A stretch of 42,138 nt of DNA from a virus (Duplodnaviria; Heunggongvirae; Uroviricota; Caudoviricetes), in the IMG/VR virus record IMGVR_UViG_2737471818_000002, positions 1 to 42,138 of that record; one strand, given 5' to 3'. Below, piece by piece: positions 32,718 through 36,708 of this stretch. Below the pieces are notes generated by a model, which saw only the letters and a list, made by a program, of their open reading frames with translations, did not search any database and was not told where the DNA came from. The first letter of the stretch is position 1, and each line of letters begins with the position of its first letter. The position numbers and the translations under genes are program-made.

Positions 32718-33368
32718 ATGAAAACTCAATTGATGGGAGAGCGCATTCGCGCTCGGAGAAAAGAACTCAAGATCAGGCAGGCCGCACTTGGAAAGATGGT
32801 CGGCGTGTCTAATGTTGCCATATCTCAGTGGGAACGCTCTGAGACAGAGCCAAATGGAGAGAATCTTCTCGCCCTGGCTAATGCGTTGAAGTGTTCCCCT
32901 GACTATCTGATGAAAGGAGAGGAAAGTCTTTCAAACATTGCCTATCACAGTAGGCATGATCCAAGAGGGTCATTCCCTCTGATTAGCTGGGTGAGCGCAG
33001 GATGCTGGATGGAAGCTGTAGAACCATATCATAAGCGTGCAATAGATAACTGGTACGATACAACCGTAGATTGTTCAGAAGATTCGTTTTGGCTGGACGT
33101 AAAGGGTGATTCGATGACGGCTCCAGCCGGTCTTAGCATCCCTGAAGGAATGATAATACTCGTCGATCCTGAAGTAGAGCCGCGTAACGGGAAACTGGTA
33201 GTTGCAAAGCTCGAAGGAGAAAACGAGGCAACTTTCAAGAAGTTAGTTATTGATGCAGGCAGGAAGTTTCTAAAACCACTTAACCCACAATATCCGATGA
33301 TCGAGATCAACGGAAACTGCAAAATCATCGGCGTAGTTGTCGATGCAAAACTAGCAAACCTTCCATAA
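32718..33368 (+). CDS. c2: C2 (CI-type) prophage repressor with LexA-like autocleavage domain, P22 immunity
   Basis: 216-aa ORF highly similar to recalled P22 C2; N-terminal HTH and C-terminal S24 peptidase region (GDSM...K). Confidence 0.95.
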   Translation: MKTQLMGERIRARRKELKIRQAALGKMVGVSNVAISQWERSETEPNGENLLALANALKCSPDYLMKGEESLSNIAYHSRHDPRGSFPLISWVSAGCWMEAVEPYHKRAIDNWYDTTVDCSEDSFWLDVKGDSMTAPAGLSIPEGMIILVDPEVEPRNGKLVVAKLEGENEATFKKLVIDAGRKFLKPLNPQYPMIEINGNCKIIGVVVDAKLANLP

Positions 33369-33391
33369 GGGGGCATTCGCCCCTTTTTTTT
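33369..33391 (+). terminator. Intrinsic terminator after the repressor gene
   Basis: GGGGC-ATTC-GCCCC hairpin followed by eight T immediately after the c2 stop. Confidence 0.6.
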
Positions 33392-33434
33392 ATTTCCTTT
33401 AAAAATCAAAGCCAAACTTAAGTTACGAAAGAAA

Positions 33435-33488
33435 ATTTAAGTTTTCTTCAAAAATACTCTTGACCATTAATTAAAGAGATCTTAAATT
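33435..33488 (+). promoter_or_regulatory. PL promoter with overlapping OL operators
   Basis: TTGACC (33460-33465), 17-bp spacer, TAAATT (33483-33488); operator-consensus sites at 33470-33487 and 33435-33452. Confidence 0.5.
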
Positions 33489-33534
33489 TAAGCCATCAGC
33501 AGGACGCTGGAAGCCAAACGGAACAGATTGGCAG

Positions 33535-33575
33535 GCTCTTTAACATTGATGGGATTGTCCCGCCGAAATGCGGGA
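33535..33575 (+). promoter_or_regulatory. nutL: boxA (GCTCTTTAACA) and boxB hairpin identical to nutR
   Basis: BoxA at 33535-33545 and TCCCGCCGAAATGCGGGA at 33558-33575 downstream of PL; same two elements occur in transcript sense at nutR. Confidence 0.5.
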
Positions 33576-33888
33576 ACCAAAGAGTAGTTGGCTTTGGGGT
33601 GGCGTGAAGTGCAGCTGCACGACGGCAACCGGAAGATAAGCACCCGGCGCGTCACCGCCAAAGTCAATTCCATAGGCGTTATGCAGCCGCCACCATATTC
33701 AAGAAAGCTGCACAAGAGGTAGGAGGATTTATGTGAATACTTACATTCAATTGAGAGATTAATTAAATAGAACTGATCGAGCAGAGTCCATAAAGGCTCA
33801 TAAATGCTCTTCCATCCCCGTCTAATTGGCGGGGAAGGAAACCACTTTGTAATAAAAAAATTCCAAAGTTGTTTCATCGGAGGTCAAC

Positions 33889-34188
33889 ATGACAGTAGTC
33901 ATTACATATCTGGCTGACGATAACGCCAGAAATCGCCGCAGAGCACGCAGACAGGCTCAACGTGAACAGGCAATGCAAGAGCAGCGACTGGCGCGAAAGA
34001 TTGCGCTAAAGCTCTCTGGTTGCGTCAGAGCAGATAAAGCAGCATCACTCGGAAGCCTTCGCTGCAAGAAGGCAGAAGAAGTCGAGCGTAAACAGAACCG
34101 TATTTACTACCGCAAGCCACGCAGTGAAATGGGTGTGACTTGTGTTGGTCGCCAGAAAATGAAATTAGGCAGCAAACCACTTATTTGA
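33889..34188 (+). CDS. N: Antitermination protein N
   Basis: 99-aa ORF with GGAGGT RBS; N-terminal arginine-rich motif (NARNRRRARRQAQREQA); C-terminus YYRKPRSEMGVTCVGRQKMKLGSKPLI resembles recalled lambda N. Confidence 0.75.
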   Translation: MTVVITYLADDNARNRRRARRQAQREQAMQEQRLARKIALKLSGCVRADKAASLGSLRCKKAEEVERKQNRIYYRKPRSEMGVTCVGRQKMKLGSKPLI

Positions 34189-34198
34189 GGGGTGAATT

Positions 34199-34513
34199 AT
34201 GGCGTCGAACGGAATTAGCTTTAAAGACAATAATCTTTTAAGTCTCCGAGTTGATGAGATAATTTCCATTGTTACAACCTTTCCGACAAAAAAGGAAGCG
34301 TTAAAAGCTGGTTCTAAATATGGATGGTCATCAGCTTTCCTTATAGAGCGTAGATTTGAAAAGGTTTGGTTGGTGGGGAAAAAGGATTTCCAAAACGACC
34401 ATATCGGGAATGTGGAGTTCGAAGTATTCCGCATTCCATTGTTGAGATGGGAAAAGACTGCTGGAATTACACACTGCCCAATTATTTCAGTGCGCAGATA
34501 TAAAGCCGCATAG
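34199..34513 (+). CDS. Hypothetical protein A of AT-rich early-left accessory module
   Basis: 104-aa ORF with GAGGGG RBS, 10 bp after the N stop; about 40% GC by eye; no recognisable motif. Confidence 0.5.
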   Translation: MASNGISFKDNNLLSLRVDEIISIVTTFPTKKEALKAGSKYGWSSAFLIERRFEKVWLVGKKDFQNDHIGNVEFEVFRIPLLRWEKTAGITHCPIISVRRYKAA

Positions 34514-34576
34514 TCGGCCTTTATTTTTGGCATAAACAAGAGAATAAACACTGCACTTAATTATTTGAGGTTAGAT

Positions 34577-35047
34577 ATGACAAAATCATGGAGCGTACCT
34601 TTTCCTGAATCAGAAACTGAACATGAGGGAATGCCTGTTTTCTGGAGATTCCAGGCGACAGTTGAAGAAGATGGAATCAAAATATTCGCACTTCAATATA
34701 TAGCTTTTCATCAGACAGAGCATTATGCATGGTTGGTTCCTGCGCATTGGATTGTTGATTTTAAACCAGCACCAAATCAGTGGTTACAGGAATGGAAACA
34801 AAAGAGAAATAGATATGCAATTAAGAAAGTAGCAAAAAATGCAGAAAGATCTTTTGCATTCCCAACGAAGAAACTTGCCATTGAGAGTTTATTGCGCCGG
34901 AAGAAATACCATTTAATGAGAATCAAACAAGATTTGGCTGTTGTATCAACTCTTGTTGATGGGATGAAGAATATTGATACATCAACACCAGATATTGAAT
35001 ATAACTTTGGGCACAACCAAGAAACAGAAAATTGGGTATTTTATTAG
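34577..35047 (+). CDS. Hypothetical protein B of AT-rich early-left accessory module
   Basis: 156-aa ORF from ATG at 34577 with GAGG RBS; AT-rich; Trp/His-rich N-terminal half and basic central segment; no recognisable motif. Confidence 0.5.
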   Translation: MTKSWSVPFPESETEHEGMPVFWRFQATVEEDGIKIFALQYIAFHQTEHYAWLVPAHWIVDFKPAPNQWLQEWKQKRNRYAIKKVAKNAERSFAFPTKKLAIESLLRRKKYHLMRIKQDLAVVSTLVDGMKNIDTSTPDIEYNFGHNQETENWVFY

Positions 35048-35152
35048 TACGAGTAAGCACTATGTATTCATTCCAACGAGTGAATACACGGAGCAATGTC
35101 GCTCGTAACTAAACAGGAGCCGACTTGTTCTGATTATTGGAAATCTTCTTTG

Positions 35153-35178
35153 CCCTCCGATGTGAGGGCAATTTTTTT
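35153..35178 (+). terminator. Intrinsic terminator after the AT-rich accessory module
   Basis: GCCCTC-CGATGT-GAGGGC hairpin followed by seven T, ending 13 bp before the next start codon. Confidence 0.55.
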
Positions 35179-35190
35179 GACGGAGGATAT

Positions 35191-36159
35191 ATGAGTGAAG
35201 TAACAGATTTAGTTGTTATTGAAAAAGCAAATGCAATGACTGTATTTCAGTCTGCCGACCAGATTGAAGAAATCCTTCAAAAGGTTGAACGTGAAGTTAT
35301 GTCCTTTGTGCCTGATATCACAACGGCAAAGGGCAGAAAGGAGATCGCTTCTCTGGCGTATAAAGTTGCGCAGACGAAAACATATCTCGATGGTCTTGGC
35401 AAAGACCTTGTTGCTGAACTGAAGGAAATTCCAAAGCTAATTGATGCCAACCGCAAGACAGTGCGCGATCGCCTTGATGAACTGAAAGCCAAGGCGCGCC
35501 AGCCTCTTACTGATTATGAGGAAGAACAGGCGCGGATTAAAGCCGAAGAAGAAGCTAAGGCAGCAGCTGAAGCTCTCGCAAAGCAAATTGAGTCTGACCA
35601 TGAAATAGCGATTTTGATGGATCGCGAATTTGACCGCCAAAGAGAAGAGGCAAGACTCAAAGCGGAGCAGGAAAAGCGAGAGCATGAAGAACGCTTAAAA
35701 AGAGAAGCTGAAGAGAAAGCCAGAGCTGAAGCCGAAGCAAAGACAAAAGCCGAAATTGAAGCAGCAGCAAGGCGAGAAGCAGAAGCTAAGGCCGCAGCGG
35801 AACGTGCAGAGCGTGAACGCATTGAAGCCGAGCAACGAGCACAGCGCGAAGCAAAAGAGGCAGCAGAACGAGCTGAAAGAGAAAAGCAGGCGGCAATTGA
35901 AGCAGAACGCCGAAAAGCACAGGAGGAGGCTGAACGAATCAGGCGCGAGGCTGAAGCAAAAGAGCAAGCCAGAATAGCAGAAGAAAAAAGAATCAAGGAA
36001 GAAGAAGAGCGTAGAGCAAAGGATAAAGCTCACCGGAAAGAAGTAAATAACAAAATACTTGCTGACCTTATCAAGGTTGGCGCATCAGAAGATGTTGCTA
36101 AAAATATCATAACAGCCATCGTAAAAGGCGAAGTATTCGCAACAAAAATAACCTACTAA
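35191..36159 (+). CDS. Hypothetical coiled-coil protein with Ala/Glu/Lys/Arg-rich repetitive central region
   Basis: 322 aa from ATG at 35191 with GGAGGA RBS; about 200 aa of repetitive charged coiled coil; ordered N- and C-terminal regions. Confidence 0.5.
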   Translation: MSEVTDLVVIEKANAMTVFQSADQIEEILQKVEREVMSFVPDITTAKGRKEIASLAYKVAQTKTYLDGLGKDLVAELKEIPKLIDANRKTVRDRLDELKAKARQPLTDYEEEQARIKAEEEAKAAAEALAKQIESDHEIAILMDREFDRQREEARLKAEQEKREHEERLKREAEEKARAEAEAKTKAEIEAAARREAEAKAAAERAERERIEAEQRAQREAKEAAERAEREKQAAIEAERRKAQEEAERIRREAEAKEQARIAEEKRIKEEEERRAKDKAHRKEVNNKILADLIKVGASEDVAKNIITAIVKGEVFATKITY

Positions 36160-36183
36160 TAAAACCAACATAAGGAACCACCC

Positions 36184-36315
36184 ATGATTTACGCAATCGC
36201 GGGAGGCGCTCGCATGGGTGCCTTCCAACTAAATGAATCTTTACTTGAACGAATCACCCGTAAATTACGTGACGGATGGAAAAGAGTTGAGGTCTTATTA
36301 TGCGCAATGAAATAG
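36184..36315 (+). CDS. cIII: CIII-like protein (protects CII from FtsH)
   Basis: 43-aa ORF with AAGGA RBS; core ESLLERITRKLRDGWKR is the conserved CIII region as recalled from lambda. Confidence 0.7.
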   Translation: MIYAIAGGARMGAFQLNESLLERITRKLRDGWKRVEVLLCAMK

Positions 36316-36452: not shown

Positions 36453-36708
36453 GTTTTACAGATAACTGGTCAGACGAAGAATTCATTCGTCAGATGAAAG
36501 ATTTAATCGGTAACGAAGGAGATATTCATGTCACTTGCAACCACAGTGAAGGAGAGCAAGTTACAGAGACGCATGTACACGCAGAAAGCTCTCTGGTATC
36601 GCCATAATGGTGACCGCGAAGGAATGCGGGTATGCCTTAATTTGTCCCGAGTCGAAGTATTAAATCAGCGTTATTTCCTTGGGCCGTGTCCATTCTGAGA
36701 ACAATCAT

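What the first reader, a model, noticed from the sequence alone, without database searches (positions are those of the whole stretch)
34199..35178. AT-rich two-gene module of unknown function directly after N, in the sieB/ral/gene-17 position
Two consecutive plus-strand ORFs (104 aa and 156 aa) sit between the N gene and the cIII-kil-erf block. In P22 and lambda this slot holds superinfection-exclusion and anti-restriction morons (sieB/esc, ral, gene 17). Both ORFs have good RBSs with a shared upstream motif (ACTTATTTGAGG), are visibly more AT-rich than the flanking phage genes, and are closed off by a strong intrinsic terminator at 35153-35178. Neither protein shows a motif I can assign. The layout is what one expects for a horizontally acquired defence, exclusion or anti-defence cassette.
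Basis: partly seen in the sequence, partly recalled or inferred. Interest (0 to 1): 0.7.

Follow-up and report, generated by a model that had tools for sequence, protein, structure and literature searches.

The report
Two independent accessory genes after N
The two small genes are real and were acquired horizontally, but they are unrelated single-gene cassettes of unknown function stacked by chance in a known variable spot right after the phage N gene, not a two-gene defence module.

Summary
Both ORFs (34199-34513 and 34577-35047), their ribosome-binding sites, the shared TTATTTGAGG motif, the low GC (37.5% against 46.9%) and the terminator at 35150-35178 are all present.

The two-gene module reading fails. 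ORF1 (PHROG 16670, rare) and ORF2 (PHROG 1636, which includes HK97 gp45 and the H-19B/Stx-phage gene; found in 598 of 5426 E. coli genomes) are never adjacent elsewhere. That covers 23 other ORF1 loci, 30 other ORF2 loci and all complete E. coli genomes. Each is a separate insertion bracketed by short direct repeats. The "shared motif" is part of a recurring linker made of the 3' end of N and a GGCCGCATAGTCGGCC hairpin with a T-run. This linker bounds at least 29 unrelated gene families, including ral, Nmad5 and orf184. The strong terminator belongs to the conserved backbone, not to these genes.

Neither gene has its own promoter. Both lie in the c2-repressed pL operon, so expression is probably early lytic rather than lysogenic. 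Both proteins are soluble and under purifying selection, with no sequence or fold relative of known function. ORF1 has a confident model (pLDDT 89) that matches nothing.

The slot is the published "Ral" accessory region. The most likely role is early counter-defence or host takeover, and this is untested.

The parts
33460..33488 (+). Candidate pL promoter (TTGACC-17-TAAATT), flanked by P22 c2-type operator half-sites (CTTAAGT / ATTTAAG)
   Evidence: Promoter scan. The same half-sites appear at oR upstream of c2. Operator assignment is by inspection and by memory of P22 operators.
33805..33836 (+). Candidate nutL: boxA-like GCTCTTC followed by a boxB-like hairpin CCCCG-N9-CGGGG
   Evidence: Read from the sequence. 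This is inference and was not tested.
33889..34188 (+). Antitermination protein N (99 aa, HK97/H-19B type)
   Evidence: phrog_271 at E 4.8e-37. PF25694 at 8.4e-4. Annotated as N in 98%-identical phages.
34181..34190 (+). Left copy of the direct repeat TTATTTGAGG. It contains the N stop codon and the Shine-Dalgarno sequence of the next gene.
   Evidence: In phage 611R6 a single copy joins N directly to ORF2.
34191..34570 (+). ORF1 cassette: a 380-nt insertion relative to N-ORF2 phages such as 611R6, HK97 and L020
   Evidence: Comparison of junction sequences.
34199..34513 (+). ORF1, 104 aa, pI 9.7, soluble. PHROG 16670, function unknown. Confident predicted fold with no relative found.
34505..34557 (+). 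Conserved cassette linker: hairpin (G)GCCGCATAGTCGGCC with the ORF1 stop codon TAG in its loop, a T-run, and the spacer GGCATAAACAAGAGAATAAACACTGCACT. Weak terminator-like element.
   Evidence: Fold energy -6.7 kcal/mol here against -10.9 for the canonical copy. The same element follows ORF1 homologues, Nmad5, ral, orf184 and others. The exact 18-mer occurs in more than 120 IMG/VR contigs.
34561..34570 (+). Right copy of the direct repeat TTATTTGAGG, which supplies the Shine-Dalgarno sequence of ORF2
34558..35061 (+). ORF2 cassette: a 504-nt insertion relative to backbones in which the linker runs straight into the terminator region. Bracketed by GCACT at 34553-34557 and 35057-35061.
   Evidence: Side-by-side comparison with L024 (E. 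coli K56-43-un), L083 and HK97.
34577..35047 (+). ORF2, 156 aa, pI 8.7, soluble. PHROG 1636, which includes HK97 gp45 and the H-19B/Stx-phage hypothetical protein. Function unknown.
35062..35149 (+). Conserved structured non-coding stretch with two predicted hairpins upstream of the terminator. Part of the backbone.
   Evidence: Fold z-score -4.9 for 35040-35200. 95-99% identical in 91 loci whatever the preceding gene. No Rfam family.
35150..35178 (+). Strong intrinsic terminator (8-bp stem plus T7). A backbone element that precedes the coiled-coil gene here and cIII in HK97.
35191..36159 (+). 322-aa coiled-coil protein (RefSeq calls it 'TolA'; similar to Sf6 gene 33 by record annotation). The next, separately assorting gene before cIII.
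   Evidence: phrog_1376 at E 1.2e-109. Annotations.

Best explanation
ORF1 and ORF2 are two unrelated single-gene accessory cassettes that move independently. They happen to be stacked in the hypervariable slot immediately downstream of N, in the early-left (pL) operon of a P22-like prophage.

**Shown.**
- Each gene is a discrete insertion bracketed by short direct repeats: TTATTTGAGG for ORF1 and GCACT for ORF2.
- The repeats belong to conserved linkers (the 3' end of N; a GGCCGCATAGTCGGCC hairpin with a T-run; a 136-nt terminator region) that recur between many unrelated genes in lambdoid and P22-like phages.
- The pair is not found together in any other sequence examined.

**Inferred: assembly.** The cassettes are shuffled by homologous recombination at these short boundary sequences.

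**Inferred: expression.**
- Neither gene has its own promoter, so both are transcribed from pL and are silent while c2 represses pL in the lysogen.
- ORF1 is co-transcribed with N, upstream of the first (weak) hairpin.
- ORF2 lies between that hairpin and the strong terminator.
- Both proteins would therefore be made at the very start of infection or induction.

**Inferred, weakest step: function.** Both are small, basic, soluble proteins without catalytic motifs. They most likely act by binding a host or competitor macromolecule, as counter-defence or host-takeover factors. Other occupants of this operon work this way (Ral, Abc2, Gam, Kil, cIII).
For: **Independence.**
- No complete E. coli genome covers more than 71% of 34100-35200, although ORF2 is in 598 of 5426 genomes and ORF1 in 17.
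- None of 23 other ORF1 loci and none of 30 other ORF2 loci carries both genes.
- The neighbours of ORF1 differ from locus to locus.
- The gene upstream of ORF2 also varies: none, an 87-aa ORF, Nmad5 or ral.
- The two proteins are not homologous (hhalign probability 8.8%).

**Boundaries.** Junction comparisons are.

**Linker promiscuity.**
- There are 131 hairpin occurrences.
- At least 29 gene families lie upstream of it and at least 21 downstream.
- In 59 of the 127 occurrences with enough flanking sequence to score, a frame open for at least 50 codons ends at the TAG in the hairpin loop.
- Ral is among these families, as is orf184.

**Operon and expression.**
- The pL candidate is flanked by c2-type operator half-sites.
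- No plus-strand promoter-like site lies between 33500 and 36300.
- The ORF1 ATG is 10 nt after the N stop codon.

**Lytic-phase role.**
- ORF2 relatives lie in early regions of the non-lambdoid phages NX263, PvVp04 and LIET2.
- The close relative of LIET2 is described as lytic, and LIET2 forms clear plaques (PMC9915841).

**Real proteins.** Purifying selection, conserved columns, and no membrane segment.

**Published context.**
- The "Ral" accessory region is the second-highest-scoring of the roughly 200 manually inspected accessory regions, out of about 2000 non-redundant ones.
- orf184 triggers the gop-beta-cII abortive-infection system (bioRxiv 10.1101/2023.04.06.535777).
- In mEp213, orf184 occupies the same N-to-coiled-coil slot.
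Against: - No functional evidence exists for either protein.
- There is no homology or fold match to any known anti-defence protein.
- The ORF2 model has low confidence (pLDDT 65).
- Promoter absence rests on a simple sigma-70 consensus scan, and AT-rich DNA can hide weak or unusual promoters. sieB in lambda and P22 shows that genes in this operon can have their own lysogenic promoter (from memory).
- The weak hairpin after ORF1 (4-5 bp) may not terminate at all, so the immediate-early versus delayed-early distinction is speculative.
- Guilt by location is weak, because most cassettes in this slot are themselves uncharacterised.
Confidence: 0.55

Rival explanations
1. Defence or superinfection exclusion expressed in the lysogen, as for sieB, rex or gp17. 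One or both genes would be transcribed in the repressed prophage from an internal promoter and would block other phages.
For: - The slot holds sieB/esc and gene 17 in lambda and P22 (from memory). gp17-family genes sit nearby in relatives.
- The genes are AT-rich, moron-like and followed by terminator-like elements.
- Prophage accessory slots often carry defence genes.
Against: - No plus-strand sigma-70-like promoter lies in or before the genes.
- The ORF1 start is 10 nt after the N stop codon.
- There is no PADLOC match and no SieB or GP17 Pfam match.
- Neither protein has a membrane segment.
- ORF2 relatives occur in early regions of phages of lytic type.
- In HK97, 611R6 and L020, ORF2 directly follows N inside the pL transcript.
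Confidence: 0.15
2. Phage-internal helper functions that are not directed at host immunity. Examples would be modulators of the lysis-lysogeny decision, replication, recombination or transcription, or nucleic-acid-binding regulators.
For: - Both proteins are basic (pI 9.7 and 8.7).
- ORF2 has a predicted three-strand sheet followed by a long basic helix.
- In NX263-type phages ORF2 heads a small operon with a ParB-like HTH protein and other DNA-related genes.
- The pL operon also carries cIII, kil and the recombination module.
Against: - There is no detectable DNA-binding family or fold.
- Both genes are dispensable in closely related phages.
- Their sporadic distribution fits accessory rather than core regulatory roles.
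Confidence: 0.22
3. A cooperating two-gene module, such as a toxin-antitoxin pair, a sensor-effector pair or a heterodimer. This is what the first reader implied.
For: The genes are adjacent, on the same strand, similar in composition and share an upstream motif.
Against: - They never co-occur elsewhere.
- Each occurs alone in many phages.
- Each has separate insertion boundaries.
- The shared motif is a generic linker.
Confidence: 0.03
4. Selfish or neutral filler. On this view the cassettes persist only because the linkers make them easy to recombine, with no benefit to the phage.
For: - The distribution is highly sporadic.
- No function is detectable.
- The closest ORF1 pair shows more non-synonymous than synonymous change (dN/dS 1.9), though on very few substitutions.
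Against: - Purifying selection is strong at larger distances: dN/dS 0.11, and dS is saturated at dN 0.2-0.28.
- Many columns are invariant.
- ORF2 is kept at 97-99% identity across many phage lineages and in 11% of E. coli genomes.
Confidence: 0.05

Closest known systems
The 'Ral' accessory region of enterobacterial lambdoid phages, with its accessory genes ral and orf184 (Silas et al., bioRxiv 10.1101/2023.04.06.535777)
   Same: - The location is the same. In mEp213 the order is N, a 74-aa gene, orf184, the 322-aa coiled-coil gene, then cIII. Here it is N, ORF1, ORF2, the 322-aa coiled-coil gene, then cIII.
- ral and orf184 end in the same hairpin linker as ORF1, with C-termini ...KAA*.
- In both cases a run of small, unrelated, rapidly exchanged genes is involved.
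   Different: - ORF1 and ORF2 are not homologous to Ral (PF11058) or to orf184.
- Conserved motifs of both families are absent from the 200-gene library of that screen, so they have no measured phenotype.
HK97 gp45 and the orthologous hypothetical proteins of H-19B, BP-4795, Min27 and the EDL933 Stx phage (PHROG 1636)
   Same: - ORF2 is 97-99% identical over its full length.
- It has the same position after N and the same downstream terminator region.
   Different: Nothing differs at the sequence level; ORF2 is a member of this family. The family has no assigned function. A full-text search for HK97 gp45 found no paper on it, and an accession search returned nothing.
Morons, as defined for HK97 and HK022 (Juhala et al. 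2000, from memory)
   Same: - An extra gene is inserted between genes that are adjacent in relatives.
- Its base composition is atypical.
- A terminator-like hairpin lies downstream.
   Different: No promoter of their own was detected. They are therefore operon-embedded cassettes rather than autonomous transcription units expressed from the prophage.
Short conserved boundary sequences at mosaic joints of lambdoid phages (Clark et al. 2001, HK620; Susskind and Botstein 1978; cited in PMC3029335)
   Same: Short conserved sequences at gene boundaries flank exchangeable units and could serve as sites for homologous recombination.
   Different: I could not read Clark et al., so I cannot say whether this particular hairpin linker is one of theirs. 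Here the linker also supplies a stop codon, a terminator-like hairpin and the next gene's Shine-Dalgarno sequence.
   Same: They occupy the same general region of the pL operon, between N and cIII.
   Different: - There is no sequence match to Ral or GP17, and no hit to any other Pfam family.
- Neither protein has a membrane segment, unlike SieB, which I recall as a membrane protein.
- No internal promoter was detected.

Membership tests
PHROG 16670 (ORF1) | Full-length match to the family profile | tested here: met
   E 6.8e-40, residues 4-103 against profile positions 3-102 of 109. 63 homologous clusters of about 100 aa.
PHROG 1636 / HK97 gp45 family (ORF2) | Full-length match to the family profile and near-identity to HK97 gp45 | tested here: met
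   E 3.8e-111 over 1-156 of 156. 97.4% identical to HK97 Gp45. All 69 distant relatives in alignment A4 also match phrog_1636.
Two-gene defence or toxin-antitoxin module | The two genes co-occur and stay adjacent across unrelated genomes | tested here: not met
   None of 23 other ORF1 loci and none of 30 other ORF2 loci carries both. No complete E. coli genome holds the pair.
Known anti-phage defence systems (PADLOC-DB v2) | Significant match to a defence protein model | tested here: not met
   ORF1 has no match. The best ORF2 match is Cas1_II at E 0.01 over 45 residues, which is noise.
Ral anti-restriction protein (PF11058) | Match to the Ral profile | tested here: not met
   No Pfam match at E up to 1. 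A genuine Ral from the same slot scores 5e-41.
P22 gp17 (PF17420) and SieB-type exclusion proteins | Sequence match to the family | tested here: not met
   Neither ORF matches GP17 or any other Pfam family above noise.
P22 gp17 (PF17420) and SieB-type exclusion proteins | For SieB: membrane segments | tested here: not met
   Maximum Kyte-Doolittle 19-residue hydropathy is 0.83 for ORF1 and 0.56 for ORF2.
P22 gp17 (PF17420) and SieB-type exclusion proteins | For SieB: its own promoter active in the lysogen | tested here: not met
   No plus-strand promoter-like site was found in or before the genes. This is only a consensus scan.
Moron (autonomous promoter-gene-terminator unit) | Inserted between genes that are adjacent in related phages | tested here: met
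   N abuts ORF2 in 611R6. The linker abuts the terminator region in L024 and L083.
Moron (autonomous promoter-gene-terminator unit) | Own promoter upstream of the gene | tested here: not met
   No sigma-70-like site on the plus strand within 33500-36300. This is a consensus scan, not an expression test.
Moron (autonomous promoter-gene-terminator unit) | Own terminator downstream | tested here: inconclusive
   ORF1 is followed by a weak hairpin with a T-run (-6.7 kcal/mol). The strong terminator after ORF2 belongs to the backbone.
Phage accessory gene in an accessory region (sense of Silas et al.) | A variable gene set between conserved anchor genes in otherwise related phages | tested here: met
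   The anchors are N and the coiled-coil gene or cIII. At least 29 alternative gene families occur next to the same linker.
Phage accessory gene in an accessory region (sense of Silas et al.) | Counter-defence or abortive-infection-triggering phenotype | not testable with these tools
   Neither family is in the published 200-gene screen.

The most novel reading that the evidence does not exclude
At least one of the two proteins is a new early-expressed inhibitor, or an abortive-infection trigger, of a bacterial immune system. ORF1 is the stronger candidate, given its confident predicted fold with no PDB or BFVD relative. ORF2 would matter more: it is carried by HK97, H-19B, many Stx-converting phages and 11% of complete E. 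coli genomes, so a result would explain a widespread phage gene. Separately, the hairpin linker could act as a dedicated cassette-exchange site that gives the post-N slot an integron-like capacity to collect such genes.
Probability: 0.3. Interest if true: 0.6.

Novelty: new member of a known kind. Interest (0 to 1): 0.35.

Why it matters
The post-N slot is one of the most variable accessory regions of enterobacterial temperate phages, and it already holds Ral and an abortive-infection trigger. ORF2 is among its commonest occupants. It is present in HK97, in many Stx-converting phages and in about one complete E. coli genome in nine, yet it has no known function and was not in the published accessory-gene screen. 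ORF1 is rare but has a confident fold with no detectable relative. Both are therefore reasonable single-gene candidates for counter-defence screens. Treating them as a pair would misdirect such experiments. The linker anatomy also gives a concrete sequence-level picture of how this slot gains and loses genes.

Tried and rejected
**Searches on both proteins that gave nothing above noise.**
- Pfam, NCBIfam and PADLOC scans.
- Sequence and profile searches of the PDB with alignments A2, A3 and A4.
- A Pfam scan of 69 distant ORF2 relatives.

**Other negative results.**
- Rfam on 33300-36300 gave no match.
- ORF1 against ORF2 by profile-profile comparison shared only an 11-residue F-x-T-K-K-x-A strand-to-helix motif, at probability 8.8%. 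I rejected this as homology.
- Literature searches for HK97 gp45, for the RefSeq accession and for the early-left operon found no functional study.
- I suspected that orf184 of Silas et al. might be ORF2. I read its sequence from the deposited model and the gene table. It is a different 107-aa cassette from the same slot.
- The 129-aa minus-strand ORF at 33488-33877, between pL and N, and the 128-aa antisense ORF over ORF1 were both rejected. The first lies in the pL leader and has only a 20-residue PHROG match. The second is not conserved.

Full report
**1. What is in the sequence**

The window is a P22-like prophage. It carries a c2-type repressor (32718-33368), a tailspike, portal and terminase genes, and gtr-like genes.

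Downstream of c2 lies a terminator (33367-33386) and then a promoter-like site at 33460-33488. That site is flanked by the same CTTAAG/ATTTAAG half-sites seen at oR, so I take it to be pL. A boxA/boxB-like nutL follows at about 33805-33836.

The genes then run N (33889-34188), ORF1 (34199-34513), ORF2 (34577-35047), a strong terminator (35150-35178) and a 322-aa coiled-coil gene (35191-36159). After these come cIII, kil and erf.

- Both ORFs have good Shine-Dalgarno sequences.
- ACTTATTTGAGG occurs at 34179 (exact) and 34559 (one mismatch).
- GC is 37.5% against 46.9% for the window, the 3.5th percentile.
- The terminator has an 8-bp stem and a T7 run, at -13.2 kcal/mol.

One is a weaker hairpin with a T-run at 34505-34530, between the ORFs. 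The other is the coiled-coil gene ahead of cIII.

**2. The ORFs are real genes of catalogued but uncharacterised families**

ORF1 matches PHROG 16670 (E 7e-40) and ORF2 matches PHROG 1636 (E 4e-111).

ORF2 is 97-99% identical to HK97 gp45 and to the equivalent gene of H-19B, BP-4795, Min27, the EDL933 Stx phage and dozens of other Stx phages. It is present in 598 of 5426 complete E. coli genomes. An exhaustive profile search finds 88 representatives at 50% identity. All are proteins of about 140-160 aa with no extra domains.

ORF1 is rare. It occurs in 17 of 5426 E. coli genomes and in one Klebsiella phage among 50,697 phage records. A profile search finds 63 clusters of proteins of about 100 aa in enterobacterial prophages.

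Several results show that both are functional proteins.
- Purifying selection is clear. dN/dS is 0.11 for ORF1 at 80% identity. Synonymous sites are saturated at dN 0.2-0.28 for distant ORF2 pairs.
- The antisense ORFs are not conserved.
- Neither protein has a membrane segment.

**3. They are not a module**

No complete E. coli genome covers more than 71% of 34100-35200. Among all loci fetched, none of 23 other ORF1 loci and none of 30 other ORF2 loci carries both genes.

Close ORF1 homologues almost always sit directly after N. What follows them varies: DUF7446, Y8K6 and gp17-family genes, a 108-aa ORF, or the coiled-coil gene directly.

ORF2 follows N directly in 611R6, HK97 and L020. Elsewhere it follows an 87-aa ORF, Nmad5 or ral. 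More distant members of both families sit in other early or accessory regions.

The two proteins are not homologous.

**4. How the arrangement arose**

Junction comparison shows two nested insertions.

Relative to 611R6, where the join reads ...CCACTTATTTGAGG|TGAGATATG-ORF2, the window carries 380 extra bases (34191-34570). These hold ORF1 and are bracketed by TTATTTGAGG.

Relative to E. coli K56-43-un and IMG/VR locus L083, the window carries 504 extra bases (34558-35061). These hold ORF2 and are bracketed by GCACT. In those two backbones the post-ORF1 linker runs straight into the terminator region.

The "shared motif" is therefore one end of a recurring linker. The linker has three parts:
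- the 3' end of N (GGCAGCAAaCCACTTATTTGAGG);
- a hairpin, GGCCGCATAGTCGGCC, with a T-run;
- a spacer of about 30 nt.

Across 131 occurrences it is preceded by at least 29 unrelated gene families and followed by at least 21. Of the 127 occurrences with enough flanking sequence to score, 59 have a frame open for at least 50 codons that ends at the TAG in the hairpin loop. This is why so many of these proteins end in ...AA.

The upstream families include Ral, Nmad5 and orf184.

The 136-nt region with the strong terminator is 95-99% identical in 91 loci. In 76 of these it was not scored as adjacent to ORF2 by a simple distance test. It is a backbone element, and HK97 annotates it as a putative terminator.

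This matches the idea of short conserved boundary sequences at lambdoid mosaic joints (Clark et al. 2001 and Susskind and Botstein 1978, as cited in PMC3029335). I could not read Clark et al. to check whether this hairpin is one of theirs.

**5. Most likely mode of action**

*Expression (inferred).* No plus-strand promoter-like site lies between pL and the coiled-coil gene. The ORF1 ATG is 10 nt after the N stop codon. Both genes should therefore be silent in the c2-repressed lysogen and transcribed from pL at infection or induction. ORF1 lies upstream of the first, weak hairpin (-6.7 kcal/mol here, -10.9 in the canonical copy). ORF2 lies upstream of the strong terminator. In HK97-type phages ORF2 shares the pre-terminator segment with N.

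*Function (inferred, weak).* Several points bear on function.
- Both are small, basic, soluble proteins with no catalytic signature.
- The slot is the "Ral" accessory region of Silas et al. It is the second-highest-scoring of the roughly 200 manually inspected accessory regions, out of about 2000 non-redundant ones. It contains the anti-restriction gene ral, and also orf184, which triggers the gop-beta-cII abortive-infection system.
- In mEp213, orf184 lies between N and the same coiled-coil gene.
- ORF2 relatives also occur in early regions of non-lambdoid phages, including the Lietduovirus LIET2. Its close relative is called lytic, and LIET2 forms clear plaques.

Together these favour an early-lytic counter-defence or host-takeover role that works by binding a target. 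Defence expressed in the lysogen is less likely. Neither family is in the published 200-gene screen, so nothing has been measured.

**6. Rivals**

| Rival | Weight | Main point |
|---|---|---|
| Phage-internal regulatory or DNA-handling helpers | 0.22 | Both proteins are basic, and ORF2 sits next to ParB-like genes in NX263-type phages. No DNA-binding fold is detectable. |
| Lysogenic defence or exclusion | 0.15 | This would need an undetected internal promoter. |
| Neutral filler | 0.05 | Purifying selection argues against it. |
| True two-gene module | 0.03 | The distribution data contradict it. |

**7. Novelty and verdict**

The genes belong to catalogued families of unknown function, and the slot is a published accessory region. 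I therefore rate the finding as a new member of a known kind. The particular ORF1-ORF2 stacking appears to be unique to this window, but it is best read as chance.

The useful outcomes are three:
- The module reading is corrected.
- The cassette boundaries and their promiscuous hairpin linker are mapped precisely.
- Two single-gene candidates for counter-defence screens are identified: ORF2 because it is so widespread, and ORF1 because its confident fold has no relative.

I score interest at 0.35.

Noticed in passing
window 34505-34557; also L004-L011 and more than 120 IMG/VR loci (L025-L144): A 16-nt hairpin, GGCCGCATAGTCGGCC, with a T-run and a conserved spacer recurs as a boundary between at least 29 upstream and at least 21 downstream unrelated gene families in lambdoid and P22-like phages. 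In 59 of 127 copies a frame open for at least 50 codons ends at the TAG in the hairpin loop, so unrelated proteins share a ...AA C-terminus. It looks like a combined weak terminator, stop codon and recombination linker.
   Followed up: partly
window 35050-35185: A 136-nt non-coding stretch (two predicted hairpins plus the strong terminator; fold z-score -4.9) is 95-99% identical in 91 fetched loci, whatever gene precedes it. It matches no Rfam family. The sequences are too similar to test covariation. It could be an RNA processing or regulatory element rather than only a terminator.
   Followed up: partly
window 35191-36159: A 322-aa Glu/Lys/Ala-rich coiled-coil protein (phrog_1376). RefSeq labels it 'TolA' or 'coiled-coil domain-containing', and a phage record notes similarity to Sf6 gene 33. 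It sits just before cIII in many phages, assorts independently of ORF1 and ORF2, and has no known function.
   Followed up: no
L005 3093-3716 (E. coli 2023CK-01687) and 27 IMG/VR loci: In many E. coli prophages the slot between N and ORF2 holds a 207-aa 'Nmad5 family putative nucleotide modification protein'. It ends in the same hairpin (...EAA*).
   Followed up: no
L009 3678-5315: One metagenomic prophage carries N, then three further small genes, then the ORF1 homologue, with two copies of the hairpin linker. The 118-aa gene just before ORF1 ends with the same 3' sequence as N, which suggests a duplicated or chimeric N 3' end used as a linker.
   Followed up: no
window 36528-36698: This 56-aa ORF (MSLATTVKESKLQRRMYTQ...) is a close relative of orf168 (AFH20475.1) in the Silas et al. 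accessory-gene library. That places a second screened accessory region just downstream of kil in this window.
   Followed up: no
window 33488-33877 (minus strand) and 33490-33800: The leader of about 400 nt between pL and N is GC-rich relative to its surroundings. It contains a 129-aa minus-strand ORF with only a 20-residue PHROG match, which is probably spurious. Related phages annotate assorted small plus-strand ORFs here.
   Followed up: partly
window ORF1 versus L007 (Salmonella, 94% aa identity): The closest ORF1 pair shows more non-synonymous than synonymous change (dN 0.029, dS 0.015). The counts are too small to call diversifying selection, but this would fit an arms-race gene.
   Followed up: no
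window 3400-5750: This is the only other stretch of the window below 40% GC, with a minimum of 30.5% near 4200. It overlaps the gtr-like O-antigen modification genes and the start of the tailspike gene, so it is another horizontally acquired accessory block.
   Followed up: no
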